DNA of 64,000 nucleotides from positions 1-64,000 of IMG/VR virus record IMGVR_UViG_3300045988_180769, one strand, 5' to 3'. Position numbers and translations under genes: made by a program. The stretch comes from a virus. The notes under the pieces are model-generated. The model did not search any database and had not been told where the DNA came from. It was given only the letters and a program-made list of their open reading frames with translations. Shown piece by piece: positions 1,347-35,695 of this stretch (position 1 is its first letter; the number at the start of each line of letters is the position of its first letter).

Positions 1347-1367
1347 ATGACTAACGTATAAAAACAG

Positions 1368-1553
1368 TTATTCACTCCATGTTATAGAGTCTATTGACAA
1401 CACTTTGCCTTGTTCTTTCTCTTCGATTGCTTTGGTGATTGCTTCTTTTTCTTTCTTTGTAGGTGGAAGTTTTGTTATATTCATTTCTATTGGTACATGA
1501 ACTTGTTTTGTTACTTCCTCATCTACTTCTAATGTTGCTATTACTACTATCAT
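1368..1553 (-). CDS. hypothetical small protein
   Basis: 61-aa ORF followed by a terminator. No motif. Confidence 0.5.
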   Translation of the reverse strand: MIVVIATLEVDEEVTKQVHVPIEMNITKLPPTKKEKEAITKAIEEKEQGKVLSIDSITWSE

Positions 1554-1662
1554 AATCTTTATATATTATTTGGTTGTTAATTCTTGTTTCTTTTGAGTCA
1601 TGAGTACTTTAATGTGCAATTTATCGTTCTTATATTGTTTTCTTAAATTAAACCTTGTTTTA

Positions 1663-1703
1663 CTAAAAAGTAAGAAGATCTATTTTCACAAACCAATCTT
1701 CTT
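1663..1703 (-). terminator. terminator-like hairpin after ORF 1747..2859
   Basis: AAGAAGAT (1672-1679) pairs with ATCTTCTT (1696-1703) across a 16-nt loop, followed on the minus strand by ACTTTTTAG. Confidence 0.4.
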
Positions 1704-1746
1704 GTGTAATCAATTAATAAACTAAAAACGATACAACATTTATTAT

Positions 1747-2859
1747 TTAACCCTTTCTCATTACTTTTATTTTCTTTTTGAGTTTTTCTCTTATATCTTC
1801 TCCTTTTTCTTCTTGAATCACCTCTATATCAGTGATTTGAGGTGGTTTCATTTCATTTAGGAACTTTGTACTTTGCTCTTGTAATTCACCCCAATCGTAT
1901 TGTTTTATTAAGTCGCCAGGGAGCATTATTTGATCTTGTCCAAGGATGTTTCTATTAAATCCATTGAAGTCCTTATACCATGAGGTCGCTAATTGGTAGA
2001 TTAATGTCTCAGGTTTAAGTTGAGATTTTGCTGCTACAAGACCTATAATTATGCTATTTATAGGTATGTCTCTCATAATTCTACTTATATTCTCTCCTCC
2101 ATGAATTGTTGCGCTAATATCGATTTTACCATCGACTGTAAGTTTCAATTCATTACCTTTTACTTCTTTTCTCGCTTGTTCGAGGAGGTTTCTTATTTCT
2201 CGAGACATATTCACTGCTTTAGTCTCTTGTCCTTTTTCAATGTATTCCTCGTATTTTAATAGTAAATCTGTGAGTATATCGTTGATTATCTCTAATCGAC
2301 CTGCCTCAGTGGCCACCCTGTATTTATCGCTTTTTAACACGAATTTCGATTGTCTCGATTCAATTACAGTTTTATTCTCATTATAGAACTTTTGTAATTC
2401 TCCTTCTTCGAGATCGTAACCTTCTTTTTGCTTAATAATCTTTCGAACATCTCTTATTGAACACAATGATCCAAAAAGGTCAAGTAGTGTAGGTGTCAAT
2501 TTAGCGAGTGCTTTCGATCTATCATTATAGAGATCAAATGTATGGAAATACTTGGTTTTCGCACGATTATACTCTCCAAGTAGAGGCATTAAAACTTTTG
2601 CTCTAATTTCTTGGGCATCTTGAATTGCTTCTTCACTCGCACCTCTATTCTTCATAATACCCTTTACATTCACATACTTTAAGTCTATAGAATGCATCAC
2701 ATTATTATGACCAATATATGTGAGAAAACGATCTGGACATTGGTCCAATTTCAATCGTGCCCTCTCATATTCAACATACGCATCCTGCATGTATTTAGAT
2801 GCGATTTGAACGAAGTCTGGAGCTTCTTTAATTATATCTTCTCTACTTACCTTATCCAT
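1747..2859 (-). CDS. hypothetical protein
   Basis: 370-aa ORF, helix-rich and charged. No recognisable catalytic motif. Confidence 0.75.
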   Translation of the reverse strand: MDKVSREDIIKEAPDFVQIASKYMQDAYVEYERARLKLDQCPDRFLTYIGHNNVMHSIDLKYVNVKGIMKNRGASEEAIQDAQEIRAKVLMPLLGEYNRAKTKYFHTFDLYNDRSKALAKLTPTLLDLFGSLCSIRDVRKIIKQKEGYDLEEGELQKFYNENKTVIESRQSKFVLKSDKYRVATEAGRLEIINDILTDLLLKYEEYIEKGQETKAVNMSREIRNLLEQARKEVKGNELKLTVDGKIDISATIHGGENISRIMRDIPINSIIIGLVAAKSQLKPETLIYQLATSWYKDFNGFNRNILGQDQIMLPGDLIKQYDWGELQEQSTKFLNEMKPPQITDIEVIQEEKGEDIREKLKKKIKVMRKG

Positions 2860-2884
2860 TTGATTGCTTTTTGTCTAAATTATT

Positions 2885-2917
2885 CGTAAAGATATGCTAA
2901 AAAACAATTCAATGCAA
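2885..2917 (-). promoter_or_regulatory. promoter candidate, variant box (TTG-N20-TATCTTTAC)
   Basis: On the minus strand, TTG at 2917-2915 and TATCTTTA at 2894-2887, 27 nt upstream of the ATG at 2859. Confidence 0.45.
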
Positions 2918-3301
2918 TGGGGATGGATCTTTTTGTGCCTCTCGCTTATAATGTTGTCGAATTTCTTCTTTTGCTCCAATTTCTTCCAAAGGATTCATTA
3001 GTGGCTCCATTTTGTTCACTTTTACAAGATTCAAATAAAGACGATCGTTATTGAATTGAACATTTTGCTTTGCATATACTTCTACTTCTAATAAGTAACA
3101 ATTTTGATTTGGCACTACTTTTGGTTCAAAGTTATATGCAAAGACACTCATTAGATGAGAGTTGTCCATTTCATCTCGATATTGAACAACAAATGTTGTC
3201 AAAAACGATCCATCTTCATTGAATTGTTTAGTATACTTCTTTTGATAAAGAGTCACTATCACTTTTTGTGTCATAATCTTTCTCATTGAATTGTTGAGCA
3301 C
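2909..3301 (-). CDS. hypothetical protein (start uncertain)
   Basis: The track start at 3301 is GTG. In-frame ATGs at 3286 and 3274 (MRKIMTQKV...) are likelier. Confidence 0.55.
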   Translation of the reverse strand: MLNNSMRKIMTQKVIVTLYQKKYTKQFNEDGSFLTTFVVQYRDEMDNSHLMSVFAYNFEPKVVPNQNCYLLEVEVYAKQNVQFNNDRLYLNLVKVNKMEPLMNPLEEIGAKEEIRQHYKREAQKDPSPLH

Positions 3302-3413
3302 TTCTCACTTCCATACATGAATTCTTATCCTCATATGGACAATTCGATTGAAAGTTACACGATTTACATACTTCACCAAAACTCTTGTTGATGTCTTTAA
3401 TTTCTTTTGCCAT
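3228..3413 (-). CDS. small Cys-rich hypothetical protein
   Basis: 61-aa ORF with CKSCNFQSNCPYEDKNSC. It overlaps the next ORF by roughly 50-70 nt. Confidence 0.35.
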   Translation of the reverse strand: MAKEIKDINKSFGEVCKSCNFQSNCPYEDKNSCMEVRSAQQFNEKDYDTKSDSDSLSKEVY

Positions 3414-3762
3414 ATTCTTCTATTCCTTCTTTAAGTTCACAAACTGCAATATATACGAAAGATTGATTAAGAGGTGAATGAACTAAAACTTCATCTCTCC
3501 AATCTAATACACTTTCACTCCACCCTGCCCATTCATCTGTAGATGATGCTAAAACAAAAACCCTTTCGAATTCATCTATACAAAATCCTACTACCATCCA
3601 TTCATCGTCATCATAGATAAAATTCTTTCCAAGATTGGCTTTGATGAATTCTAATTTTTCTAATTCTTGTGCTATTAACATATTATTTCTTTTTAGGTTG
3701 TTCAACATTTGCTTTTTCGATAAGTGCGAGGTTTTTAGAAATAAAGATTTCTTTTTCACCAT
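3397..3762 (-). CDS. hypothetical protein
   Basis: 121-aa ORF. Confidence 0.55.
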   Translation of the reverse strand: MVKKKSLFLKTSHLSKKQMLNNLKRNNMLIAQELEKLEFIKANLGKNFIYDDDEWMVVGFCIDEFERVFVLASSTDEWAGWSESVLDWRDEVLVHSPLNQSFVYIAVCELKEGIEEYGKRN

Positions 3763-3961
3763 CTATTTCAAGATGATATTGTTTGCCACCTCCCTTTCCA
3801 CATATACTCGCTATCTTACTTATTCTTCCAATAAGCATCATATTCTTTGCTTTTAGAATCTTTACTCTATCTCCTATTCCAAGTGCCATTTTTATAAAAT
3901 ATTTTTCAAAAAGGAGAGACTCGAAACCTCCCAATATCAAACAAATAAGCATATTAAACAT
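3683..3961 (-). CDS. hypothetical protein (possibly starting at the internal ATG at 3889, MALGIGDRVKI...)
   Basis: 92-aa ORF with a promoter-like motif 38 nt upstream of 3961. Its 3' end overlaps ORF 3397..3762 by 80 nt. Confidence 0.45.
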   Translation of the reverse strand: MFNMLICLILGGFESLLFEKYFIKMALGIGDRVKILKAKNMMLIGRISKIASICGKGGGKQYHLEIDGEKEIFISKNLALIEKANVEQPKKK

Positions 3962-3997
3962 TATTAATTTTGTCTCGAGTCTTTCTCCTTTTCTTTG

Positions 3998-4010
3998 TCT
4001 AAAGATACAA
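3998..4010 (-). promoter_or_regulatory. promoter-like motif (coding strand TTGTATCTTTAGAC)
   Basis: TAAAGATAC at 4000-4008. The extended flank TTTTCTTTGTCTAAAGATACA is identical to the site at 1110. No TTG at the usual -33 spacing. Confidence 0.45.
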
Positions 4011-4019
4011 TTTTCTTGT

Positions 4020-4259
4020 CTATTTATTCTTTTTAAGGTCTATATTCTTTTCAACTTTATATCCCATCCTATTAAAGAATGTTTGTACAACCATCCTATT
4101 CAATATCCTTTTCCCTCCATGAGTGTACGATCCTGGAAGATTATTTTCTATTGACCATTGAATGAATGGTTTTGATTCAATAAACTCCCATAGGAGATGA
4201 GTATATTCTTCATCACTCATCTCCTTTACTTGTCCTTTTGGGTTTGTCAATCTTACCAT
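4020..4259 (-). CDS. hypothetical protein
   Basis: 79-aa ORF. Its start shares one nt with the stop of the upstream ORF. Confidence 0.55.
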   Translation of the reverse strand: MVRLTNPKGQVKEMSDEEYTHLLWEFIESKPFIQWSIENNLPGSYTHGGKRILNRMVVQTFFNRMGYKVEKNIDLKKNK

Positions 4260-4801
4260 TACTCAATTCGTTTTTGATATGACACATCTTCAAGATTATC
4301 CATCAAAGCACTTATTTCCATAATCTTCTTCCATCTTTCAGGTGTCATTGGCTTTTCTTCTTTTGGTTCATCATCTTCGACATTAGAGAAGATATTATGT
4401 TTATTAATAAATGCATTAATGAGCGTTTCGAGTAAATGTTTCTTTTCTTTCTTCCATTGAGTAAAAAAGAATTCGTACATGCTTTGAATTTCGAGATATT
4501 GAGAATTAGTCAAGTTGAAATAGATCTCGTTCTTATATTGTCCTGTATGATATGAAATCGTTTTTTGTCCAGTCACATTTGCATATACTTGAAAAAGTAT
4601 TGTTCGAGCAAATTGATCATAGAAGGGTAATTTGAAATATCGACTTTCCTTCTTTTCACTAAAAAGATCATCAATATCGATATTATGTTCTAAACATAAT
4701 TTCTCCAATGCTCTTTTTGCTGCCAAAGCTTCACCATCAACACCTCTTTCTACAAGTGCCTGTAATTTCTTGACCTTATCTATTACTTTTTCGTATTCCA
4801 T
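4259..4801 (-). CDS. hypothetical protein, DUF2786-like N-terminus
   Basis: The N-terminal helix pair KVKKLQALVERGVDGEALAAKRALEKL resembles the DUF2786 pattern. Judged by eye only. Confidence 0.5.
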   Translation of the reverse strand: MEYEKVIDKVKKLQALVERGVDGEALAAKRALEKLCLEHNIDIDDLFSEKKESRYFKLPFYDQFARTILFQVYANVTGQKTISYHTGQYKNEIYFNLTNSQYLEIQSMYEFFFTQWKKEKKHLLETLINAFINKHNIFSNVEDDEPKEEKPMTPERWKKIMEISALMDNLEDVSYQKRIE

Positions 4802-4807
4802 TGTCGA

Positions 4808-5101
4808 CTAAATTTTAATCGTTTGCACATATTTTAATTCACCACTATAACCTCTCGATCTTAATTCATCCATAAGTTGCTTTGGAGTAAATTTAGCGAG
4901 TTCGACATTATTGTAGACTTTTTTCATATGGGGGGGGGTAGAAGATCGTTCACTTTTGAGTCGATCGTGATATTGTCTATTAATTTCTCTTGTACAATCT
5001 TTGCAATAAGATTGTAACCCATCCTTTGAACTTGCATTTTTAGCAAAACAAGACACATCTTTTGTCTCTTGACATCTTTTACATTCCTTCGTTGTACTCA
5101 T
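4808..5101 (-). CDS. zinc-finger protein (CxxC...CxxC) with a small C-terminal helical domain
   Basis: CKRCQETKDVSCFAKNASSKDGLQSYCKDC resembles the N-terminal module of the two HNH proteins at 7565 and 26371. Contains a C9 homopolymer on the coding strand (4930-4938). Confidence 0.6.
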   Translation of the reverse strand: MSTTKECKRCQETKDVSCFAKNASSKDGLQSYCKDCTREINRQYHDRLKSERSSTPPHMKKVYNNVELAKFTPKQLMDELRSRGYSGELKYVQTIKI

Positions 5102-5121
5102 AGTTTTTATTTATTAAAAAG

Positions 5122-5592
5122 TTATACTCCAAAGCAACTTATCATTGCTTCTGTTCCATATCTCAATTTACCTTCTTCACAATAATCTCTTTCTTGATAT
5201 AAAGCATCATTATCTTCTTTTGAAGAAAACCAATAAAGATGGTTTAGTGAATAATATGGTGGAATAAATTGATCTTTATATCTACTATCTTTATCTATTC
5301 GATAAAACTCAAAAAGAGTATTATAAATGACAAATTGATATGATGAATTTTTAGCAAAGTCTATTGCATTTTCACGACAAATATTACCTATCATCTTAAA
5401 TATTTCAATCACATTGCATATTGGTTTATTGAATGGTATCCACACTGGTTGGTGAATTTTATTCCAACTGTAACAATTTAATTCTGCGAGTCCAATTAAT
5501 TGCCATACGAACAAAGTTGTATGACCTTCACGTCTTCCTACGAGCTCATCTTCGTTTAGGAAGAGATTGTGTAGTCTATCTATATCTACCAT
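5122..5592 (-). CDS. hypothetical protein
   Basis: 156-aa ORF. Confidence 0.65.
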   Translation of the reverse strand: MVDIDRLHNLFLNEDELVGRREGHTTLFVWQLIGLAELNCYSWNKIHQPVWIPFNKPICNVIEIFKMIGNICRENAIDFAKNSSYQFVIYNTLFEFYRIDKDSRYKDQFIPPYYSLNHLYWFSSKEDNDALYQERDYCEEGKLRYGTEAMISCFGV

Positions 5593-5594
5593 AT

Positions 5595-5825
5595 TTATAC
5601 TTCCATTACTATTTCTACTTTCGCTAATTCAAAAAATACATTTTTTAATTGATCTAAATTCAATTCATCTGAGAGTACCATAATAGTTGAATTATCACTT
5701 TGATAATAGCTCAACTTTATAGGTTTGATATCAATCACCTTTTCATGAAAAGTTTTGATAACATGTTCGAGATCAATTCCTTTTAAGACCTTGATCTCGT
5801 AAACGCGTAATTTATTTTTAGACAT
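5595..5825 (-). CDS. hypothetical protein
   Basis: 76-aa ORF, abutting its neighbours. Confidence 0.55.
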   Translation of the reverse strand: MSKNKLRVYEIKVLKGIDLEHVIKTFHEKVIDIKPIKLSYYQSDNSTIMVLSDELNLDQLKNVFFELAKVEIVMEV

Positions 5826-6214
5826 TATCTTTCAACGATTTCGTAAGACTCTATTTCATATTCAACCCAATCCCATCTTTCTTCTGGATCGTCTTCTACT
5901 ACGCTTTGGATTTCTTCTTCTTCAATAGAAAAACGTTCTTCACTATCTTTAAAGTATAAGTAATCTTTATCACTCAACTTTTCATCAATAGTTCTTTCAA
6001 TAGTTTCTTCGCTGTCTAAGATCTTTCCAATGAAAATTTTCGTTTTCTCTTTATCATCTGATAAAATGTATTCACATTTTAAAGAATCAAAAATTAGCAA
6101 TATATCATCCTCTTTACTATTTCTTATTGCAGTTTGATATGCTTTCAATATAGTTTTGTAATAATTAGAGTCTTTTACAAATGCTCCATTAAGTTCTAAA
6201 TAAAATCGTTTCAT
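5825..6214 (-). CDS. hypothetical, strongly acidic protein
   Basis: 129-aa ORF, very D/E-rich toward the C-terminus (SIEEEEIQSVVEDDPEERWDWVEYEIESYEIVER). Promoter-like motif 47 nt upstream. Confidence 0.65.
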   Translation of the reverse strand: MKRFYLELNGAFVKDSNYYKTILKAYQTAIRNSKEDDILLIFDSLKCEYILSDDKEKTKIFIGKILDSEETIERTIDEKLSDKDYLYFKDSEERFSIEEEEIQSVVEDDPEERWDWVEYEIESYEIVER

Positions 6215-26370: not shown

Positions 26371-27066
26371 TTATAATATTTCACTTTTTAAAAATTCAAA
26401 TAACTCTTCAATATTTTCAGGAAGTTCATCACTTTTCTTCAAATTATCTCTTTTCCATAGAGGTTGAAGATTCCTGTAATTGAAGCAAATGTACTGATTC
26501 TCAGGATCTTTCAAATCAAAATAAGAACAAGGAATGATATGATCAATCTGCCATTCACCATAATTGTCCCAAGTCATTCCTTGTTCAAATTGAGATTCAA
26601 GATATTGTTTTAAATGTTCTAATGAACAACCAAGAAGATTGAGTGTTCGAACTGATTTTTGATTATTCTTGAGAGCGAGATTGGTTCTACTTCGCAAAAG
26701 TCTTTTTAATCTAAACTCAATATCATATTTATATCGCATTCTGTAATATTCAGCACATTTACCTGAATTAATATATTTTACAGATCGTCTTTTTATACAC
26801 TCTTTACCTTTTTCTTTTTGATAATATTTTTTATCTACTATTTTCCTTTTCTCAGATCGAATATATTTCTTATATGATTCTTGACCACTTTCAGTTTTAT
26901 AATATTTTCTGTTATAAATTCTTTTCTCTTCTTTTGTGCGAATTGTTTTAGAACAAGATTTACAGTAACCATATAATCCATCTTTAGTTTGATTGCTTTT
27001 ATAAAAAGAGTCTCTTGACAAGAATCTTTTACAATAAGGACAATATTTAACTTCTCTGTTCATCAA
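26371..27066 (-). CDS. free-standing HNH endonuclease with an N-terminal zinc finger (paralogue of 7565..8206)
   Basis: CPYCKRF...GYCKSCS, then WQIDHIIPCSYF...NYRNLQPLWKRDNLKK. It shares exact 20-nt and 24-nt DNA strings with the other copy. Confidence 0.85.
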   Translation of the reverse strand: MMNREVKYCPYCKRFLSRDSFYKSNQTKDGLYGYCKSCSKTIRTKEEKRIYNRKYYKTESGQESYKKYIRSEKRKIVDKKYYQKEKGKECIKRRSVKYINSGKCAEYYRMRYKYDIEFRLKRLLRSRTNLALKNNQKSVRTLNLLGCSLEHLKQYLESQFEQGMTWDNYGEWQIDHIIPCSYFDLKDPENQYICFNYRNLQPLWKRDNLKKSDELPENIEELFEFLKSEIL

Positions 27067-27344
27067 TGTTTATTTAATAACTTATTAACTATTTCTGTAC
27101 TAATCTTTTTATACTCTTTAATGTAATCTTCAAATGTTTTTAAATCTTTCTCACTTTCAAATATCTCATAATCTGCGATCTTCTTCATTAAATGCTCCAA
27201 TGTTAATCCATAAGCAACTGGAGTTTCTACTCTCACATTTTCTTTACCACCTCTATTTCCATAAGAAACTTTCATAAGGTCCCAACAAAATGGAGCGTGT
27301 AAACATTGTTCTATAAAGAACTTTTCTGTCAATTCAATTCTCAT
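27063..27344 (-). CDS. hypothetical protein
   Basis: 93-aa ORF, coupled by 4-nt and 1-nt overlaps. Confidence 0.6.
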   Translation of the reverse strand: MRIELTEKFFIEQCLHAPFCWDLMKVSYGNRGGKENVRVETPVAYGLTLEHLMKKIADYEIFESEKDLKTFEDYIKEYKKISTEIVNKLLNKH

Positions 27345-27874
27345 TATAATTTTGGTTTTTTAATCATAAATGAATTTATCTTACCTTCAATCAATTCTTG
27401 AAAAAACTCTTTTGGAACAATCTTTGGAAGAAGGTTGTTCAACTTCTTATCTTTTGATTGTATTGCCCAAAATAATGAATCAAGTTTGTCTCTTTTTGCT
27501 TCGAAATCAATTTGCTCGATTTGTAATTCTTGATACTTTTCATCCAACAATACTATCTCTTCAAGTCCTTTTTCAGTCAATTTGAATGTCTCATTATCAA
27601 TAGTAACTCTACCATTGTTTATTGCAGCTTCTCTTCTTATTGACTTTTTCAATCCTGAAACATAAACATCACAATAAAGTTTTGCTTCTTTTGCTTTCCT
27701 CTCATAATCTGCTTTCCACATTCCTACTTTATTCAATAATGCAGAAATTGTCACTGCCTCACCATAGAGGTTTGCATAATTTATCGTTGTCACTTCTTCA
27801 AGATTGATCTCTTCATCTTCATCAGATGAAACAAGAACTATTGTTTTATCTCCTTCTTCAATGATTATCTTCAT
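27344..27874 (-). CDS. hypothetical protein
   Basis: 176-aa ORF, coiled-coil-like. Confidence 0.65.
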   Translation of the reverse strand: MKIIIEEGDKTIVLVSSDEDEEINLEEVTTINYANLYGEAVTISALLNKVGMWKADYERKAKEAKLYCDVYVSGLKKSIRREAAINNGRVTIDNETFKLTEKGLEEIVLLDEKYQELQIEQIDFEAKRDKLDSLFWAIQSKDKKLNNLLPKIVPKEFFQELIEGKINSFMIKKPKL

Positions 27875-27971: not shown

Positions 27972-30035
27972 TCACGATAAAACTGTAAAACGCGAATCTA
28001 AATTTGTTTGTAGAACATATTCTTGTCTCCATTTGTCATATTGAATGTAACCATCAATAAGAAGAATGTTTCCTTTGCTTTCTTGAATGAAATTGGAATA
28101 TTCAGCATAGATGTCAGAGAAGATGATTATATTAATGAATTCATAGTTACTTTCAAGAATAACTGTAGCGAAAGGTCCTTTTCTTGATTTTCTTTCTATC
28201 ACATCGATAACAAAGCCACCTATCGCACATTCAACTGATCTTCCTGTTCCATCCCAATACTTAATTTGACCTATATCAAAGAACTCAATATCGTCTGTCT
28301 TAATAAGATGATACTCATTGACGAGTGATTCGTAATCAAATGTAGCGAATCCAGAAAGTTTCTTTTGTTGTAAAATCCACCACCAATTGTTTTTCTCTTT
28401 TCGTGCTTTTATAATACTTGTTAACAAGTCTTTGTCTTCAAGTATCTTCACTTTCTTATTCTCTCGATATGATTCTATCAATCGAAGTCTTTCTTTTGGC
28501 TCTACAATACCTTCGAGTTTATCGAATGCACCACTATAAATCAAATTCTCGATCACTGACTTATTCACTGGAGAATTCTTTATTACACATCTATCGATAA
28601 ATTCTTCTAATGAAAAGAATTCACCATTCTCTTGTCTTTCATTGTGAATAAATTCTTGTGCTTTCTCTCCACATTGCTTTACTGAATTTAATGCCCAATA
28701 CATACTATTGGTCTTTATATCAGAAACAATGTTAATATCACTCATATTGATATCTACTGATTTAATCTCAATATTTCCTGATCTTTGAATTTCATTAATG
28801 TAATAGGGGTAATCTTTGATCTCAGCGTGTGAGAATGTTACAGACCAAAACTCTATTGGATAATGAACTTTCAACCAAATACAAATGTATCCATTTCTCG
28901 AATATGAAATAGCATGACTAAAGTTGAATGCATATTTACCAAACTCTTCCATTTGTTTCCATAATCCTTCTGCATCTTCTTTACTCACATCAAACTTATT
29001 CATGTACCCATCTACAAACTTGTCTTCAAATGCTTTTAGTTTTGACATGATCTTTTTACCCATTGCTTTTCTCACTGAGTCAGTAGTTTCAAGGTCAAAA
29101 CCAGCTAAATGTTGACAAAGTCTCATGATATCTTCTTGTGTAATCAAAAGTCCAAGATGTGGCTTTAAGATCTCTTCAGCTCCAACTGGATATACGATAT
29201 CACTATCACCTCTTTTTCGAAGAATGTATTCATTATGATAATTGTTTTCAATAGGACCTGGACGATACAATGCAGCACAAAGTCCCATTTCATCCAAACT
29301 CTCTGGTTGCATTTGTACACAATAAGAAGAAAGTCCTTTCGCTCCAAAGTGAAATACATCTCCAAGAAATCCTTGTTTAATATATTCAAACACAGTTGGA
29401 TCGTCAATAGGAATATCTTTATAGAGATCAAGTCTTATTCCATGATTTTTCTCGATAAGATCGACCATATCTGTCCATTTATCAAGTTGTGCAATTCCAA
29501 GAATATCTTCTTTAAGAAAACCAGCTTCTTCAATCTCGTTACCTTCCCATTCTGTGACAATCAATCCTTTTTGTTCTTTAACTGGTACCCATTGTGCAGA
29601 AATCTTATCATCTGGAAAGATAATCGTTCCACATGCATGTATACTCGCTGCTTTAGGAGAATTAAGACATACCATCACATCATTAATGAGTTCTGTATGG
29701 TCTTTCACAAACTCTCTTAATTCTGTGTCTTTGCATATAACTTTGAAAAAGTCTTCAATGCTTTTCATTCCTTCTTCATCTCGAAGTTTAGATGTTATTC
29801 TTCGAACTACTTGAATTGGAATACTTTCACACCTCGCGAGGTCAGTGATTGCAGCTTTTAACTGCATTGTTGTATATGTTCCTAAAGAAGTTACTTGTGT
29901 TGCTCCAAACCTCTTTTCCATATATTCTTTCACCCTTGGTCTTTGTCGACCACCAAAATCTGTATCAATGTCAGGTAAAGATCCAAGTTTGGTAGACTCA
30001 ACTACTTCTTTTTTAATCGTTTTAATTGTTATCAT
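27972..30035 (-). CDS. dnaE: DNA polymerase III alpha subunit, C-terminal piece (palm, fingers, OB)
   Basis: LPDIDTDFGG (catalytic Asp motif), FHFGAKGLS, LYRPGP and FNFSHAISYS. The track start at 30068 is GTG. The ATG at 30035 (MITIKTIKK...) overlaps the upstream stop by 14 nt and is likelier. Confidence 0.85.
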   Translation of the reverse strand: MITIKTIKKEVVESTKLGSLPDIDTDFGGRQRPRVKEYMEKRFGATQVTSLGTYTTMQLKAAITDLARCESIPIQVVRRITSKLRDEEGMKSIEDFFKVICKDTELREFVKDHTELINDVMVCLNSPKAASIHACGTIIFPDDKISAQWVPVKEQKGLIVTEWEGNEIEEAGFLKEDILGIAQLDKWTDMVDLIEKNHGIRLDLYKDIPIDDPTVFEYIKQGFLGDVFHFGAKGLSSYCVQMQPESLDEMGLCAALYRPGPIENNYHNEYILRKRGDSDIVYPVGAEEILKPHLGLLITQEDIMRLCQHLAGFDLETTDSVRKAMGKKIMSKLKAFEDKFVDGYMNKFDVSKEDAEGLWKQMEEFGKYAFNFSHAISYSRNGYICIWLKVHYPIEFWSVTFSHAEIKDYPYYINEIQRSGNIEIKSVDINMSDINIVSDIKTNSMYWALNSVKQCGEKAQEFIHNERQENGEFFSLEEFIDRCVIKNSPVNKSVIENLIYSGAFDKLEGIVEPKERLRLIESYRENKKVKILEDKDLLTSIIKARKEKNNWWWILQQKKLSGFATFDYESLVNEYHLIKTDDIEFFDIGQIKYWDGTGRSVECAIGGFVIDVIERKSRKGPFATVILESNYEFINIIIFSDIYAEYSNFIQESKGNILLIDGYIQYDKWRQEYVLQTNLDSRFTVLS

Positions 30036-31638
30036 AATCAACCAATATATCGTTTTCTTGTAAGTCACTCGCCTTTATCACCAATTTTTCATCTCCTCTA
30101 AAGATCCTAACAAAATCTTTGCTTTTAATTCTTATGGGTGATGAACTTTCTTCATTGATTATAACTTCCTCAACCTTCTCATGTCTTATCAATCGACCCA
30201 TTGTTAAAAACCTTTCAAACAGTAAGTCATAATCGAGAGGATTGACCTGAACAAGACCTAATAGGTAAGAGACTAAACTACCTGCTGCAGAACCTCTTCC
30301 TGAACCAAGTAAAATATTCTCTTTCTTACACCAATTCACGATATCTCTCAAAGTAAGAAAATAGTCAACTACCTTTCCATCTTCAATTACTTTAAGCTCA
30401 CGATCAAGTCTTTCCCCAATAATTTCATCTGAATACTTCTCAAGTAATTCTGGGTGTTCTTCGACACCTTTGAATACAAGATCTTCGAACATTTGAATAT
30501 TATCTTCATATTCGAGCGCTTCTTCGTCTGTCATATAATAAACAGGCATATGTCGATTTTGAGTTTCGATCAAGAAATTACATTCAAAGGAAATATCTTT
30601 CAAATTGCTTATTGCATTGTCATATGTTTCAATGAACTTATCGTCATCGCCAAATAATGAACCTAATTCCTCAAAATATTCTTGATAATTTTTGAAATAT
30701 TGATTTTGACTTTCGTGAGTAACAATCTTTCCTAATGAATTAACTTTCTTTTTGATAGGAGCAAGCTCTTTTTCTGTGTAATAAGCATCACACATTGCCA
30801 CTGGTTTTAAATTGCTTTTAAAGAACTTCTTTAGATTATCGAGATATGCTTTATCTCTTTCTTCTTTTTCAAATACAACTGTATCTAACTGATAATATTC
30901 CACTATTTCATTGAAACTCCTTGGAATATTTGAATAACTTATTGTTTTTGGGTCCCATATGAAAATTAACCCATCGTAATAGTCTTCTATATCCTCTTCT
31001 GAAACATATGAAGAACCTTCTACATTCATTATTTCACTGAGTCTCAATAAATTAGACCATCCTTCTTTGTTCTTTACAAATGCTTTAATGGTGTATCTAA
31101 GATCCTTTTTCTCATTTAGAACATTAATCTCAAGACCTTGAATTGGTCTAAGACCCACTTTTTGACATGCATCCTGAAATTTCATTGATGCAGCTAATGT
31201 TCCTCTTTCGCATATACCAAGACTTGTAATTCCTAAGAACTTTGCTTTCTTACACCATTCGTCATAAAGCTCTAATCCATTCATTAATTCAAAAGAGCCA
31301 TGAACACCAAGATATGTATCAATATACAATTCATCTGAAAATAGGTTTGCTTTTCCAATCCATTTAACTTTTTCAAGTTTAACATTGTTTTCATTACCTT
31401 TCTTCAATGAATACCATATACTACCAAACTTGAAAATATAATTATCATAATTGGTTCGATCACAAGCCCAATGAAATTCTTCATCAAAGAAAATCCCTTT
31501 ATCTTGATCCTCCCATTTGAATGGCTCAAAAAGCTCATATGTTTGTCCATCTATATTGATAACAAATTCACTAACTTCTTCATATAGAATGAAATTGTCA
31601 GCGAGATATTGTAATAACTCACCATATAATTCTCTCAT
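30022..31638 (-). CDS. dnaE: DNA polymerase III alpha subunit, N-terminal piece (PHP domain to LFERFL)
   Basis: PHP-like GVHGSFELMNG...GITSLGICERG and GSGRGSAAGSLVSYLLGLVQVNPLDYDLLFERFL, then a 56-aa non-polymerase tail before the stop. Confidence 0.85.
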   Translation of the reverse strand: MRELYGELLQYLADNFILYEEVSEFVINIDGQTYELFEPFKWEDQDKGIFFDEEFHWACDRTNYDNYIFKFGSIWYSLKKGNENNVKLEKVKWIGKANLFSDELYIDTYLGVHGSFELMNGLELYDEWCKKAKFLGITSLGICERGTLAASMKFQDACQKVGLRPIQGLEINVLNEKKDLRYTIKAFVKNKEGWSNLLRLSEIMNVEGSSYVSEEDIEDYYDGLIFIWDPKTISYSNIPRSFNEIVEYYQLDTVVFEKEERDKAYLDNLKKFFKSNLKPVAMCDAYYTEKELAPIKKKVNSLGKIVTHESQNQYFKNYQEYFEELGSLFGDDDKFIETYDNAISNLKDISFECNFLIETQNRHMPVYYMTDEEALEYEDNIQMFEDLVFKGVEEHPELLEKYSDEIIGERLDRELKVIEDGKVVDYFLTLRDIVNWCKKENILLGSGRGSAAGSLVSYLLGLVQVNPLDYDLLFERFLTMGRLIRHEKVEEVIINEESSSPIRIKSKDFVRIFRGDEKLVIKASDLQENDILVDYDNN

Positions 31639-32906: not shown

Positions 32907-33472
32907 CGATTATCACCTGCTCCATGAATTACTCCTCTCTTTTTTCGAGAGGCCAATTTCTCATTGTTTTGAACAGCAACTTCTTCAATAGTCATACCCA
33001 TACTATGACAAAGACCATTCAAATACTTCCAAATGTTTTTCCAAGACTCGAGTACAATTGGTTTTCTATGTTCAGGAAAGATTGATTCTTCTCCTTCTTT
33101 CCATTCATCTCTCAACCACTTCTTTACTTGTTCAGCAATCTTTCCTACTTCGACAGGAAGTTGAAATGGATCTGGTTTCAACATTTCACTCCAATTCCAA
33201 TCTTTTTCAAGTGGAAGATCAAGTTCAACTCGAATACTTGCTAAATACCATAATTGATCGCCAATTTCTTTTGACACTTCTTCGATCTGTTTCTTTTGAG
33301 ATTGATCGTCTATCTCAATGTTGATCTTTTCATATGTTTCACCAAGTTCTCCGCTTAAACCTAATACAACATAAGGAATGGCGACTTTTTGATCATAGGC
33401 CTTTGTTGTGATGGCCTTTTCTTCATACTCTCTGTAATTCATTTCTTTATTATTTAGAACAATTGTTTGCAA
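32903..33472 (-). CDS. MazG-like nucleoside triphosphate pyrophosphohydrolase
   Basis: LGLSGELGETYEKI and EIGDQLWYLA form the EExxE/D metal-binding helix pair of all-alpha NTP-PPases. Confidence 0.7.
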   Translation of the reverse strand: MQTIVLNNKEMNYREYEEKAITTKAYDQKVAIPYVVLGLSGELGETYEKINIEIDDQSQKKQIEEVSKEIGDQLWYLASIRVELDLPLEKDWNWSEMLKPDPFQLPVEVGKIAEQVKKWLRDEWKEGEESIFPEHRKPIVLESWKNIWKYLNGLCHSMGMTIEEVAVQNNEKLASRKKRGVIHGAGDNR

Positions 33473-34211
33473 TTAATTTACAAAAATTAATGAAATCATC
33501 CTGTGTTAAAGTTGATTTCATAATATTTACGCTTTTATGAACCCATTGAACGTTTCCTTCGATATAACCCTTCGACGAATCAATTCTATCTAAAGATATT
33601 GTTGATTCTAAACGACCTCTTTTAGATCCTAAACTGTAATTCGATATACATAAATCAATGCCAGATAGAGCACATTTCATATTTTGCTGTTTAAGTAAGT
33701 TATCAAGATATTCGTTTGAAACATTCCATTCTAAATTTCTTGCCACAGCTCCTTCTTGAGCTCTTCTAATAACTGAAAGATTCAAATTTCCAATCTTTTT
33801 ACTTCCCTTATTTATTCTACAATTTTGACAACAAGAACTTCTTCCTCCTGTTAAAAATGTAATTCTGACATAATTTTCTTCTCCACAATCACACTTTACT
33901 CTATAAGATCTTTCTTTACTTTTGGTTAAAACCTTGAAATCCTCTTTATCAACTATAGTCCAATGTCCAAATTTCATTCCAGTTTCTACTACAGTCCAAT
34001 GTTTTGGTTTTTGCTTTTTTGCTGCAATAGTTGCTCCATATCTACATTTTAAGCATTGTTTTGAAGTTCCTGTTTTTAGATCGTAAAATCTTTTTGTTAT
34101 AACTTCTCCACATTCACATTGAACTTTAACTTGTCCTCCTGGAATTATTTCTATTATGGTCCATTTACCATACTTGTCTCCAATTTTAGGATATATTGTT
34201 TCTAACTTCAT
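33450..34211 (-). CDS. HNH-family (His-Me finger)-like endonuclease with duplicated Cys-rich modules, putative
   Basis: Two repeats (GKWTIIE...CECGE...CLKCR and GHWTIVD...CDCGE...CQNCR), then SLDRIDSSKGYIEGNVQWVHKSVNIMK. Confidence 0.5.
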   Translation of the reverse strand: MKLETIYPKIGDKYGKWTIIEIIPGGQVKVQCECGEVITKRFYDLKTGTSKQCLKCRYGATIAAKKQKPKHWTVVETGMKFGHWTIVDKEDFKVLTKSKERSYRVKCDCGEENYVRITFLTGGRSSCCQNCRINKGSKKIGNLNLSVIRRAQEGAVARNLEWNVSNEYLDNLLKQQNMKCALSGIDLCISNYSLGSKRGRLESTISLDRIDSSKGYIEGNVQWVHKSVNIMKSTLTQDDFINFCKLIANNCSK

Positions 34212-34840
34212 TTTTTTACATTTGAAATCATATCAAAAAATTCTTTTCTTGATCCAATTTCATTAGTTTTAAAATATCCACTACAATATGAAGTTTGCAT
34301 TGTTGAATCTTGTTCAATTCCTCTCAATTTAACGCACATATGCTCAGCTTTAATAAAAACAATTACTCCTTGATTATCTGGTAAAATTTCACAAAGATAA
34401 TCATGTATTTGTTTTGTTAAAAACTCTTGAGTTTGAGGACGTTTTGATAAAAAATCTACAATACGATTTAGTTTGGATAAACCTATAATATCACCATCTT
34501 TTTTTGGAATATAAGCTAAATGACAAATTCCAACTATACTTGCAAAATGATGAGCACATAAGCTGTGAACAGGTATATCTCCTTGAAATACAATACCATC
34601 ATATTGAGAATCATTTGGAAATACTGTGATCTTTGGAGGATTATCGTATGCTCCTGATGTAATTTCTTTTACATACATTTTTGCTACTCGAAAAGGAGTC
34701 TTCTTCATCGACTCATCATTTTCCCAATCGTATCCCAATGCTGTTAAAAACTCACCATACGCTTTTTCAGCGTCTTTTAACATCTTCTCTCTTTCTTCTT
34801 CTGACAGAATCATATTCTGTCCTGATTTAATTTTCTTCAT
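34208..34840 (-). CDS. folE: GTP cyclohydrolase I
   Basis: VHSLCAHHFASIVG, GLSKLNRIVDFLSKRPQTQEFLT and AEHMCVKLRG, the FolE type I signature motifs. Confidence 0.85.
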   Translation of the reverse strand: MKKIKSGQNMILSEEEREKMLKDAEKAYGEFLTALGYDWENDESMKKTPFRVAKMYVKEITSGAYDNPPKITVFPNDSQYDGIVFQGDIPVHSLCAHHFASIVGICHLAYIPKKDGDIIGLSKLNRIVDFLSKRPQTQEFLTKQIHDYLCEILPDNQGVIVFIKAEHMCVKLRGIEQDSTMQTSYCSGYFKTNEIGSRKEFFDMISNVKK

Positions 34841-34843
34841 AAT

Positions 34844-35695
34844 TTATCTGTATCTTTCTGTTCCCCAAATAACAATTTGCAATCTATCTGAATAGATAAA
34901 ACCATTCTTTGCACAATATTCTGCCACCATTTTCCTATTTTGATCTAATTCTTCGTTGGTCGATCCTGATGGCATTAATATAATATTTAGTGGTTGAATA
35001 AATTCATCATCTTCCCATACAATATTAGAATTTCTATATAGAGGGACTTTCATTCGATTTCTTTTATAAACATCATAATCGATAAGATCTTTAATTTGTT
35101 GATGAATTTCTTCAAAATCATTTTTGCTACCAACAACATATTTCAATCTAAAGTCCTGAGAATATGTCAATAAGTCCCATAATGCATCTATATTCCAACG
35201 ATTTTTAGAATGATTTTTCATGACTTCTGTCATCTTCATTCCAAGTTTAGCGCATTTCTCTTCTGTAGGTTCTGATGACTTTAATTTAGGAGAAATATTA
35301 ATTAAATCAATATTTCCTATTATTTTTGGACAAGGTGCTATTGTTCCATTTGTTTCAACGATTACATTTTTATCATAGGTTTTAGCAATTTCAATAATGT
35401 CTCTAACGATTTCAGGATAAAGAAATACTTCGCCACCTGTAATAGATATATCTTTTGTCAATGGATATTTTTCAATTTCATCTATTATAGACTGGTATGT
35501 ATACTTTCCTTTTTCAGGATTAAAACTTGAATACGCTGTATCACAAATACTATTATCAAAACAGCATCTAAGATTACAACCACTTAATCGAACAAACAAA
35601 GTTGGATTCCCAGTTGTGATTCCTTCACCTTCTATCGAAGTAAATACCTCAATAATTGGTCTATATTTAGAAAGATCTATATTACTTATTTTCAT
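34844..35695 (-). CDS. queE: 7-carboxy-7-deazaguanine synthase (radical SAM)
   Basis: FTSIEGEG, VRLSGCNLRCCFDNSICDT (Cys cluster) and ITGGEVFLY. Confidence 0.8.
   Translation of the reverse strand: MKISNIDLSKYRPIIEVFTSIEGEGITTGNPTLFVRLSGCNLRCCFDNSICDTAYSSFNPEKGKYTYQSIIDEIEKYPLTKDISITGGEVFLYPEIVRDIIEIAKTYDKNVIVETNGTIAPCPKIIGNIDLINISPKLKSSEPTEEKCAKLGMKMTEVMKNHSKNRWNIDALWDLLTYSQDFRLKYVVGSKNDFEEIHQQIKDLIDYDVYKRNRMKVPLYRNSNIVWEDDEFIQPLNIILMPSGSTNEELDQNRKMVAEYCAKNGFIYSDRLQIVIWGTERYR

What the first reader, a model, noticed from the sequence alone, without database searches (positions are those of the whole stretch)
29982..30192. DNA polymerase III alpha is split in a conserved loop, and both halves carry intein-like but catalytically dead appendages
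Seen: the N-piece ends ...LFERFLTMGR and then adds 56 extra residues (LIRHEKVEEVIINEESSSPIRIKSKDFVRIFRGDEKLVIKASDLQENDILVDYDNN, stop). The C-piece starts MITIKTIKKEVVESTKLG and then continues SLPDIDTDF. The stop and the start overlap by 14 nt. In one-piece DnaE proteins, FERFLNPER is followed directly by VSMPDFDVDF, so the break lies exactly between conserved residues. The N-appendage resembles the tail of a split-intein N fragment (compare ...DG..L.I.EI...DL..V). The C-appendage begins like a split-intein C fragment (MI.I.T.K). However, there is no Cys/Ser1, no block B His and no terminal His-Asn. Inference: this may be a decayed split intein now used only as a non-covalent docking module. 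Alternatively it may be an unrelated split with novel association peptides.
Basis: partly seen in the sequence, partly recalled or inferred. Interest (0 to 1): 0.65.

Follow-up and report, generated by a model that had tools for sequence, protein, structure and literature searches.

The report
Dead split-intein relic holding split DnaE
This phage makes its replicative DNA polymerase as two separate proteins, and the extra peptides at the break are a shrunken, chemically dead remnant of a split intein that has most likely been kept as a clasp to hold the halves together.

Summary
DnaE lies on the minus strand as two ORFs, 30022-31638 (538 aa) and 27972-30035 (687 aa). They overlap by 14 nt and break between Pfam PF07733 positions 98 and 100, three residues before the catalytic PDIDTDF motif.

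The 56-aa N-tail and 18-aa C-head are real and conserved, and the N-tail is under purifying selection (dN/dS 0.15). More than 100 independent assemblies and the cultured Cbastvirus phages share the split.

The tails derive from a Hint domain:
- A tail-only profile hits genuine split-intein N-fragments at library-wide E of about 1e-7.
- Profile-profile alignment places the tails from block B through the split site to the first C-intein strand.
- An AlphaFold model (pLDDT 85) returns only Hint-superfamily structures as its top 34 Foldseek hits.

Blocks A, F and G and every catalytic residue are missing, so splicing is not expected.

What survives is the acidic/basic strand pair that split inteins use to associate. 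Docking is therefore the likely function, but this is inferred, not shown.

Close relatives are one-piece without the insert. Others carry a free-standing endonuclease exactly between the halves. The closest precedent is the Aeh1 NrdA-a/NrdA-b tails. Similar dead tails occur on split PolA, PolB and RNR genes.

The parts
30193..31638 (-). DnaE N-piece extein, residues 1-482: PHP domain plus the first third of the palm (NTPase) domain, ending ...LFERFLTMGR
   Evidence: ORF. Pfam PHP matches residues 112-228 and PF07733 profile positions 6-98 match residues 387-482.
30025..30192 (-). N-tail, 56 aa (LIRHEKVEEV...ILVDYDNN), net charge -4. It is a Hint relic covering the degenerate block B strand through to the split site. 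The stop codon TAA is at 30022-30024.
   Evidence: conservation; R32 and D48 invariant. (dN/dS 0.15). (homology to intein N-fragments). (Hint fold).
30022..30035 (-). 14-nt overlap of the N-piece stop and the C-piece start (ATGATAACAATTAA). This is the likely site of translational coupling. In relatives it is the exact insertion point of a free-standing endonuclease gene.
   Evidence: One search shows the HNH/EndoVII-like ORF of L020 and L025 inserted at the ATGA of this overlap.
29982..30035 (-). C-head, 18 aa (MITIKTIKKEVVESTKLG), net charge +2. It is a relic of the first beta-strand of a C-intein; blocks F and G are absent.
   Evidence: conserved heads. (aligned to the first C-intein strand). 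(strand 63-72 of the model). (charges).
29955..29975 (-). Catalytic palm motif P-D-I-D-T-D-F (CCTGACATTGATACAGATTTT), starting two residues (Ser-Leu) after the C-head. It is uninterrupted in this window.
   Evidence: In 24 related contigs a 23-24-nt hairpin insert sits between the Ile codon and the next Asp codon of this motif.
27972..29981 (-). DnaE C-piece extein, residues 19-687 plus stop: the rest of the palm, the fingers, and the HhH domain
   Evidence: Pfam PF07733 positions 100-260, DNA_pol3_finger and HHH_6.
26371..27066 (-). Free-standing endonuclease VII/HNH-like ORF (231 aa), about 900 nt downstream of DnaE. It is a homologue of the endonuclease that sits between the two DnaE pieces in relatives. 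It is an associated mobile element, not part of the polymerase.
   Evidence: 49% identity, E 6e-71, to L020:1913-2611. PHROG phrog_1035 'endonuclease VII', E 3e-14. No Pfam hit.

Best explanation
The phage DnaE (Pol III alpha) gene is truly split into two separately translated proteins.

The 56-aa C-terminal tail of the first piece and the 18-aa N-terminal head of the second are what remains of a split intein. They correspond to the segment from the block B strand to the split site, plus the first strand of the C-intein. The parts that carry out protein splicing have been deleted: block A with its nucleophile, the block B Thr/His, blocks F and G, and the terminal Asn.

No peptide bond is formed between the halves. 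Instead the acidic tail and basic head co-fold into a half-Hint beta structure. This is the same pair of long antiparallel strands that brings normal split-intein fragments together. It clamps the two halves of the palm domain next to the catalytic aspartates.

The second gene is probably translated by coupling at the 14-nt stop/start overlap.

The split and its tails behave as the footprint of a mobile element. In relatives a free-standing endonuclease gene sits exactly in the overlap, and closely related polymerases are one-piece and lack the insert.

Shown: the split, tail conservation, Hint homology and predicted fold, absence of catalytic residues, and the patchy distribution. Inferred: non-covalent docking, translational coupling, and the cassette history.
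For: - Break position: exactly at PF07733 positions 98/100.
- Conservation: split and tails are kept in all 24 IMG/VR loci where the junction is present, in Cbastvirus phages and in more than 100 protein clusters.
- Selection: N-tail dN/dS is 0.15 against 0.18 for the adjacent extein.
- Invariant residues: R32 and D48.
- Sequence homology to inteins: the tail-only HMM hits genuine intein N-fragments (P0268 E 2.4e-7, P0272 E 5.1e-7, P0317, P0284, P0337 and others). The matches coincide with PF14890 positions of about 37-93.
- PDB sequence search: the top hits are the KlbA and TFIIB inteins.
- Profile-profile: hhalign score 27.2, P 1.6e-4, against controls of 13.7 or less. Query columns 6-69 align to intein columns 50-110 of 137.
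- Fold: AF2 model pLDDT 84.9, with a long strand at 3-12 and another at 63-72. The Foldseek top 34 hits are all inteins, Hedgehog or BIL domains, with TM up to 0.65.
- Charge: N-tails are -2 to -9 and C-heads 0 to +5 in 12 pairs. Dassa et al. [quoted passage not shown]
- Active inteins nearby: genuine, catalytically complete inteins exist at four other sites of the same gene family, so decay is specific to this site.
- One-piece relatives: at 53-57% identity they read FERFLNEGR-AKV-SLPDIDTDF and nest among split lineages.
- Mobile element: the endonuclease is inserted at the ATGA overlap in L020 and L025.
- Precedent: the Aeh1 NrdA tails are essential for activity and were suspected to be intein remnants (PMC3045599).
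Against: - No experiment or multimer model shows that the tails bind each other. Fusing them for AF2 imposes proximity.
- Pfam models do not detect the tails.
- A single-sequence AF2 model gave no Hint hits.
- Foldseek E-values are modest (0.03-1) because the query is only 74 aa.
- In the Aeh1 precedent the tails were not needed for heterodimer formation, only for higher-order assembly. The role here could therefore differ from simple docking.
- How both catalytic ends of an intein were trimmed while staying in frame is unexplained.
- Similar truncated tails on PolA, PolB and RNR pieces suggest a dedicated module rather than local decay.
Confidence: 0.72

Rival explanations
1. The tails are neutral leftovers of a mobile-element insertion. 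They are tolerated but do not contribute to assembly. The two palm-domain halves associate through their own complementary surfaces.
For: Split enzymes can reassemble without helpers. In Aeh1 NrdA the tail-less fragments still formed the heterodimer. One-piece relatives need no insert.
Against: N-tail dN/dS is 0.15, as low as the flanking polymerase sequence. R32 and D48 are invariant down to 15% identity. Opposite charges are conserved in all 12 pairs. The part retained is specifically the intein association interface. In Aeh1 the tails were still essential for activity.
Confidence: 0.15
2. The appendages form an unconventional but active split intein that still ligates the two halves by a non-canonical chemistry.
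For: They have a Hint-like fold and are homologous to inteins. The same truncated architecture recurs in several genes, which is how active mobile inteins behave. Atypical inteins such as class 2/3 and cysteine-less forms exist (PDB hits).
Against: Position 1 is L/M/V/I/T. No conserved Cys/Ser/Thr/His/Asn occurs anywhere. The C-head ends in LG, NG or PG. The +1 residue varies (S, T, N). Blocks A, F and G are physically absent, and 74 aa is about half a Hint domain.
Confidence: 0.05
3. A single polypeptide is made by a programmed +1 frameshift or hop at the overlap, or the split is a sequencing frameshift error.
For: The frames differ by +1 and overlap by 14 nt. Hop-like inserts occur in relatives.
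Against: In relatives the two pieces are separated by 480-690 nt holding another ORF. More than 100 independent assemblies give the same piece lengths. The ATG-initiated head is conserved. No shifty motif is present.
Confidence: 0.03
4. The insert is an unrelated small beta domain (SH3-like, or like the P-type ATPase A-domain) that decorated the palm and was later split by an endonuclease gene.
For: The GD hairpin also gives weak hits to P-type ATPase A-domains (E 0.1-0.2). Bacteroides phage SJC03 has an in-frame 59-aa insert at the same site.
Against: The ATPase hits cover only 19-24 residues. The library-wide significant hits and all top structural hits are Hint. The SJC03 insert is not detected by the tail HMM.
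Confidence: 0.05

Closest known systems
Aeromonas phage Aeh1 NrdA-a/NrdA-b split by the mobE HNH endonuclease, with tails acting as interaction domains (Crona et al., NAR 2011, PMC3045599)
   Same: An essential replication-related enzyme is split at its active site. Both pieces carry unique, oppositely charged C- and N-terminal tails at the break. An 18-aa head sits on the downstream piece. A free-standing HNH-type endonuclease is linked to the break (in relatives here). There is no splicing. The authors speculated that the tails could be remnants of a degenerate split intein.
   Different: The gene is different (DnaE) and so is the phage group (Cbastvirus-like). Here the tails are longer and are demonstrably Hint-derived, whereas the Aeh1 tails gave no database matches. 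The charge polarity is reversed: acidic N-tail and basic C-head here. No biochemistry is available here. The endonuclease is absent from between the pieces in this window.
'Fractured genes' with active split inteins and a free-standing homing endonuclease between the halves (Dassa et al., NAR 2009, PMC2677866)
   Same: The two halves are adjacent on one strand, in a phage-type replication gene that includes DnaE. The break carries split Hint halves. Relatives have an endonuclease gene between the halves. The association strands are electrostatically complementary. A true example exists in the same gene family at residue 450 (L022).
   Different: Fractured-gene inteins keep all six Hint motifs and five catalytic residues and do splice. 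Here blocks A, F and G and all catalytic residues are gone, the module is 74 aa instead of about 125-140, and the integration point is different.
Cyanobacterial DnaE split intein (Ssp/Npu DnaE)
   Same: It also splits Pol III alpha, and an acidic IntN/basic IntC strand pair mediates association.
   Different: That intein is active. It sits at a different site (after about residue 774) and its halves are at separate loci. It yields a ligated one-piece enzyme.
Phage T4 gene 39 / mobA / gene 60 cassette with the 50-nt translational hop (Manning and Atkins 2022 preprint)
   Same: A free-standing HNH endonuclease splits an essential gene. Tail-like extensions are present. In relatives of this window a short stop-containing hairpin (UUCG tetraloop) insert lies about 23 codons into the downstream piece, and it is always present where the endonuclease is.
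   Different: The window itself has no coding gap. The gap in relatives is 23-24 nt rather than 50. It lacks a perfectly matched take-off/landing pair. Its decoding is untested.

Membership tests
HINT superfamily (intein/Hedgehog/BIL fold) | Hint beta-fold | tested here: met
   AF2 model with alignment, pLDDT 84.9. The Foldseek PDB top 34 hits are all Hint proteins, probability up to 1.00, TM (query-normalised) up to 0.65. Only about half of the fold is present.
HINT superfamily (intein/Hedgehog/BIL fold) | Detectable sequence homology to inteins | tested here: met
   The tail HMM hits genuine intein N-fragments with E 2.4e-7 to 1e-4 in 1.84e9 proteins, and the matches overlap PF14890. hhalign scores 27.2 against 13.7 or less for controls. 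Pfam models alone do not detect the tails.
Protein-splicing intein (active) | Block A with an N-terminal Cys/Ser/Thr (or Ala in class 2) nucleophile | tested here: not met
   The first tail residue is L/M/V/I/T. The alignment starts at intein column of about 50, so block A is deleted.
Protein-splicing intein (active) | Block B TxxH | tested here: not met
   The aligned positions read K-S-K-D in the window and vary across the family.
Protein-splicing intein (active) | Blocks F/G with a terminal (His-)Asn and a +1 Cys/Ser/Thr | tested here: not met
   The C-head is 17-18 aa and ends in LG, NG or PG. The +1 residue is S, T or N. The alignment ends at the first C-intein strand.
Naturally split intein | Two fragments on separately translated polypeptides, with an acidic IntN and a basic IntC association strand | tested here: met
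   Separate ORFs. Charges are -4 and +2 here, and -2 to -9 against 0 to +5 in 12 pairs. The model has long paired strands at 3-12 and 63-72.
Naturally split intein | Produces a ligated extein product | not testable with these tools
   Needs MS or western blot of infected cells or a co-expression system.
Fractured gene (Dassa 2009) | Free-standing homing endonuclease gene between the two halves | tested here: not met
   In the window the halves overlap by 14 nt. The feature is met in relatives L020 and L025. A homologous endonuclease ORF lies about 900 nt downstream in the window.
Endonuclease-fragmented gene with interaction tails (Aeh1 NrdA type) | Active-site split with unique, oppositely charged tails at the break that are retained in the mature proteins | tested here: met
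   The split lies three residues before the first Asp of the PDIDTDF motif. The tails are conserved and charged. Retention in the mature protein is inferred from the lack of any processing signal or splicing residues.
Endonuclease-fragmented gene with interaction tails (Aeh1 NrdA type) | Tails required for enzyme assembly or activity | not testable with these tools
   Needs tail-deletion biochemistry as in PMC3045599.
T4 gene 60-type translational bypass cassette | Non-coding gap with a stop codon and hairpin inside the downstream piece | tested here: not met
   The window reads CCTGACATTGATACAGATTTT without interruption. The gap is present only in relatives.

The most novel reading that the evidence does not exclude
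The truncated, non-catalytic split-Hint tail and head are not a one-off decayed intein. They would be a dedicated docking module that travels with free-standing endonucleases as a 'gene-splitting kit', and it recurs on split DnaE, PolA, PolB and ribonucleotide reductase genes of phages.

In relatives of this phage the kit also includes a 23-24-nt stop-containing UUCG hairpin inserted inside the catalytic PDI|DTDF motif. That insert must be skipped during decoding. If so, it would be a second, independent natural case of programmed translational bypass, or a new kind of RNA-level excision, in phages.
Probability: 0.3. Interest if true: 0.85.

Novelty: new variant of a known kind. Interest (0 to 1): 0.66.

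Why it matters
- **Fate of inteins.** It gives the first sequence- and fold-level evidence that the 'interaction tails' on endonuclease-fragmented phage genes can be remnants of split inteins. Crona et al. 2011 proposed this for Aeh1 NrdA but could find no database matches. It shows a route by which a selfish protein-splicing element is reduced to a purely structural clasp: the chemistry is lost and the association interface is kept.
- **Tolerance of the polymerase.** A replicative Pol III alpha can function when cut three residues before its catalytic aspartates.
- **A possible tool.** It provides a natural, minimal (56 + 18 aa), non-splicing heterodimerisation pair that could be useful for protein engineering.
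- **Annotation.** The relatives expose a large, unannotated family. Gene callers mis-start many C-pieces at MEKRFG because of the hairpin gap.
- **Recoding.** The hairpin gap is a testable candidate for a new recoding event.

Tried and rejected
- **Pfam on the tails and fused inserts.** No Hint family appeared even at E of 10 or less. Pfam alone would have suggested 'not intein'.
- **Single-sequence AF2 of the fused insert.** pLDDT was 72 and Foldseek gave no Hint hits. This was superseded by the alignment-based model.
- **Rfam on the window and 10 loci.** No group I/II intron or other RNA family reached gathering score. An intron explanation for the 210-nt region is rejected, also because the tails are under protein-level selection.
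- **Megablast to phage genomes.** No match.
- **SJC03 insert.** I first read the in-frame 59-aa insert of Bacteroides phage SJC03 as a fused homologue of the tails. The tail HMM does not detect it, so I dropped that claim.
- **L004 (MT835494).** Its N-tail starts with Cys and has a longer tail. The tail HMM matches its residues 522-560 at 27.6 bits. hhalign of the single sequence against inteins was not significant. It remains only a possible intermediate.
- **Bacillus phage WH1.** Its 725-nt gap lies after PDVDTD, not at this site, and looks intron-like. It is a different element.
- **AF2 alignments with fused relatives.** MAFFT misplaced the isolated C-heads. The final alignment therefore covered the N-tail only.
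- **First protein search with the last 93 aa.** It returned only 'middle pieces' of about 125 aa.
- **Supplement of Dassa 2009.** It is not held, so their DnaE integration points could not be compared.
Full report
**1. The observation**

On the minus strand there are two ORFs.
- One runs 30022-31638 (538 aa). It ends ...LFERFLTMGR followed by 56 extra residues and TAA.
- The other runs from the ATG at 30033-30035 to 27972 (687 aa). It starts with 18 extra residues (MITIKTIKKEVVESTKLG) and then SLPDIDTDF.
- The ORFs overlap by 14 nt, and the second frame is the first frame +1.

Pfam places DNA_pol3_alpha (PF07733) profile positions 6-98 in N residues 387-482 and positions 100-260 in C residues 19-180. 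The polymerase sequence is therefore complete and is cut cleanly inside the palm. The cut lies three residues before the first Asp of PDIDTDF (29955-29975).

The coordinates given in the finding (29982-30192) are exactly the C-head plus the N-tail.

**2. The split is real, not an artefact**

- Independent assemblies hold the same pieces: P0017 (99% identity, 538 aa) and P0137 (94% identity, 687 aa).
- All 24 IMG/VR loci at 54-80% identity in which the junction is present keep the split and homologous tails. A twenty-fifth locus, L019, is cut off before the junction.
- So do the cultured Cbastvirus phages at 34-39% identity: Cellulophaga phi13:1, phiST and phi19:2, and Tenacibaculum Larrie. There the two genes are annotated separately.
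- In some relatives the pieces are 480-690 nt apart with another ORF between them. This excludes a frameshift product as the general solution.
- The first 50 codons of the N-tail have dN/dS 0.15, against 0.18 for the 60 codons of polymerase just upstream.
- Across tails as divergent as 15% identity, R32 and D48 are invariant.

**3. What the appendages are**

Pfam does not recognise them, and a single-sequence AlphaFold model was uninformative. Four other tests agree with each other.

(a) A profile of 30 tails searched against all PDB sequences ranked two inteins first. These were Mja KlbA (E 0.041) and the Mja TFIIB mini-intein (E 0.059). Both aligned over 42-44 residues that include block B.

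(b) hhalign of the tail/head alignment against 13 inteins gave score 27.2 (P 1.6e-4). The intein set included ones cut out of this same DnaE family. The reversed profile scored 13.7, and 30 column shuffles scored 13.1 or less. Query columns 6-69 aligned to intein columns 50-110 of 137. That span runs from the strand before block B, through the split/endonuclease-insertion site, to the first C-intein strand.

(c) AlphaFold2 with a 29-sequence alignment that contained no inteins gave pLDDT 84.9. Foldseek against the PDB then returned only Hint-superfamily structures in its top 34 hits: RadA, PolII, KlbA, TFIIB, VMA, CDC21 and the Aes123 PolB1 split intein, Hedgehog 1AT0, and BIL domains.

(d) The N-tail profile alone, run with HMMER over 1.84 billion representative proteins, gave 107 hits at E of 1e-3 or better. 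Almost all lie at the extreme C-terminus of the protein. Besides DnaE N-pieces, the hits include genuine intein N-fragments:
- class I/II ribonucleotide reductases (P0272, E 5.1e-7; P0317, P0284, P0302, P0322);
- NrdD (P0268, E 2.4e-7; P0296);
- an AAA ATPase (P0337).

In each case the match falls on Pfam Intein_splicing positions of about 37-93. For example, P0272 ends ...FTYNHKLLVYRNGEEIWIRCDELKEGDDIININEKQ, against the window's ...IKSKDFVRIFRGDEKLVIKASDLQENDILVDYDNN. Likewise the genuine C-intein start MIKIRKVKVTEKIYDINV...HN (P0284) parallels the C-head MITIKTIKKEVVESTKLG.

The homology to inteins is therefore statistically solid.

**4. Why it cannot splice**

- The alignment shows that block A, roughly the first 45-50 intein residues, is absent. 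So are blocks F and G.
- Position 1 is L/M/V/I/T.
- The block B Thr/His positions are K-S-K-D here and vary elsewhere.
- The head ends LG, NG or PG.
- The +1 residue is S, T or even N.
- At 74 aa the module is about half a Hint domain.
- In contrast, the same gene family carries canonical inteins with Cys1, TxxH and HN/C at four other sites: N residue 450, and C residues of about 300, 321 and 371. One of these is a true split intein with a gene between its halves (L022).

Decay is therefore specific to this site.

**5. What has been kept, and the likely function**

- The model has two long strands, tail residues 3-12 (RHEKVEEVII) and head residues 63-72 of the fused numbering.
- N-tails are acidic (-2 to -9) and C-heads basic (0 to +5) in all 12 pairs examined.
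- This matches the two long antiparallel strands along which Dassa et al. proposed that charge distribution is important in associated split inteins (PMC2677866).

I infer that the relic is retained as a non-covalent clasp that aligns the two halves of the palm. This step is inference; no tool here could test binding.

The 14-nt stop/start overlap suggests translational coupling. That would favour 1:1 synthesis.

**6. History**

- One-piece DnaEs at 53-57% identity to the C-piece read FERFLNEGR-AKV-SLPDIDTDF, with no insert. In a neighbour-joining tree they nest among split lineages.
- P0243 (one-piece at this junction) and P0109 (split) have nearly identical flanks.
- In L020 and L025 an endonuclease VII/HNH-like ORF is inserted exactly at the ATGA of the overlap, using the same ATG position. 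The window has a 49%-identical copy about 900 nt downstream (26371-27066).
- L004 (MT835494) has a longer N-tail that begins with Cys and keeps the block B Thr. A methylase gene and two HNH-family ORFs lie between its pieces. It may be a less decayed stage.

The pattern is that of a mobile 'fractured gene' cassette that lost its chemistry.

**7. Comparison with known systems**

The closest precedent is Aeh1 NrdA-a/NrdA-b. There, tails that arrived with the mobE endonuclease are essential for activity. The authors speculated they might be degenerate split-intein remnants but found no database matches (PMC3045599).

Fractured genes with active split inteins, including three DnaE loci at other sites, are described in PMC2677866. 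This case is not a member of the active-intein class, because its defining catalytic features were tested and not met. It works like the Aeh1 tails. I found no paper describing a Hint-derived dead tail pair.

I rate it a new variant of a known kind.

**8. Beyond the window**

Relic-like tails (no Cys1, no TxxH, 45-50 aa) also end the N-pieces of other split genes:
- PolA (P0301);
- PolB (P0326);
- RNRs (P0295, P0324, P0307).

In the PolA locus a 413-aa TnsA-like endonuclease ORF lies between the pieces, and the C-piece starts MKVNNIKKFEE..., like the DnaE heads. This hints at a reusable module.

Separately, 24 related IMG/VR contigs carry an insert between the Ile and Asp codons of PDI|DTDF.
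- The insert is 24 nt in 22 contigs and 23 nt in 2.
- It consists of a stop codon, then a CCCC-UUCG-GGGG hairpin, then a few bases ending in GUU, AUU or AGC.
- Both endonuclease-bearing alleles have it, and most others have it without the endonuclease.
- Many database gene calls start at MEKRFG because of it.

It must be bypassed or excised for the polymerase to have its catalytic aspartates. It recalls the T4 gene 60/mobA hop, whose known homologues are all reported in topoisomerase genes. The window itself lacks this insert.

Noticed in passing
Relatives only: L005 ~6064-6087, L020 ~2664-2690, L025 ~4066-4090, and L031-L055 except L039. The equivalent window site is between 29964 and 29965 (minus strand, inside PDI|DTDF).: In 24 IMG/VR contigs the DnaE C-piece is interrupted after ...GS[LM]PDI by an insert. 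It is 24 nt in 22 contigs and 23 nt in 2. The form is ATC + TGA/TAA + CCCCTTCGGGGG + 6-9 nt ending GTT/ATT/AGC, then GAYACAGAT. It carries one or two stop codons and a UUCG tetraloop hairpin. All interrupted alleles use ATC for Ile, and ATC can pair with the downstream GAU. Both endonuclease-carrying alleles have the insert. It is a candidate translational bypass or RNA excision analogous to the T4 gene 60 hop. GUU, AUU and AGC could partly re-pair with tRNA-Ile(GAU). Many database gene calls start at MEKRFG (about 650 aa) because of it.
   Followed up: partly
window 26371-27066 (-): A free-standing endonuclease VII/HNH-like ORF (231 aa; PHROG phrog_1035; no Pfam hit). It is 49% identical to the ORF that sits exactly between the two DnaE pieces in L020 and L025. 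Here it lies about 900 nt downstream of DnaE, after two small ORFs of unknown function (27063-27344 and 27344-27874).
   Followed up: partly
L022 947-3820; L017, L018 and L019 at C residue 371; L020-L022 at C residue ~321; L023-L029 at C residue ~300; P0069, P0109, P0112-P0126: The same DnaE family is a hotspot for canonical, catalytically intact inteins at four other sites. These comprise mini-inteins, inteins with LAGLIDADG or HNH domains (some N-pieces also carry a GIY-YIG domain after the site-450 intein half), and a true split intein with intervening ORFs at N residue 450. Some phages therefore encode DnaE in three or more pieces, including 'middle pieces' of about 125 aa such as P0005.
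   Followed up: partly
P0301 (locus L057 251-4524), P0326 (L058), P0295, P0324, P0307: Truncated, non-catalytic Hint-like tails of the same family end the N-pieces of split PolA, PolB and ribonucleotide reductase genes. In L057 a 413-aa ORF with a Tn7 TnsA-like N-terminal domain lies between the PolA pieces, and the C-piece begins MKVNNIKKFEE..., like the DnaE C-heads.
   Followed up: partly
L005 5522-5995; L011-L013 ~5609-5995: In four relatives the gap between the DnaE pieces holds a 127-157-aa ORF (MKFSELPIEVQEKLNAERLDL...). It has no Pfam or PHROG match, and its function is unknown.
   Followed up: partly
L004 (MT835494) 3220-5010: Between the DnaE pieces of this GC-rich faecal phage contig lie an N6/N4 DNA methylase gene and two HNH_3/NUMOD4-type ORFs, the upstream one possibly a fragment. 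The C-piece start needs a +1 shift at CCG-TAA-G just after a perfect 9-bp GC hairpin (GGAGGGCGG-ACATT-CCGCCCTCC). This is either a sequencing error or another recoding signal.
   Followed up: no
L030 (Bacillus phage vB_BceM_WH1) 2290-3010: This DnaE is interrupted after PDVDTD by about 700 nt without an ORF and is annotated as three separate genes. It is probably a group I-type intron, although Rfam gave no hit at gathering score.
   Followed up: no
L003 (Bacteroides phage SJC03) CDS 1351-5175, residues ~483-541: A one-piece DnaE with an in-frame 59-aa insert at exactly the same site (after FLNAGR, before ISLPDVD). The tail HMM does not detect it, and its origin is unknown.
   Followed up: partly
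window 33450-35695 (-): By eye from the ORF translations, upstream neighbours look like a GTP cyclohydrolase I (34208-34840) and a radical-SAM QueE-like protein (34844-35695), plus another HNH-like ORF (33450-34211). This suggests a 7-deazaguanine DNA modification module. None of these was checked with any tool.
   Followed up: no
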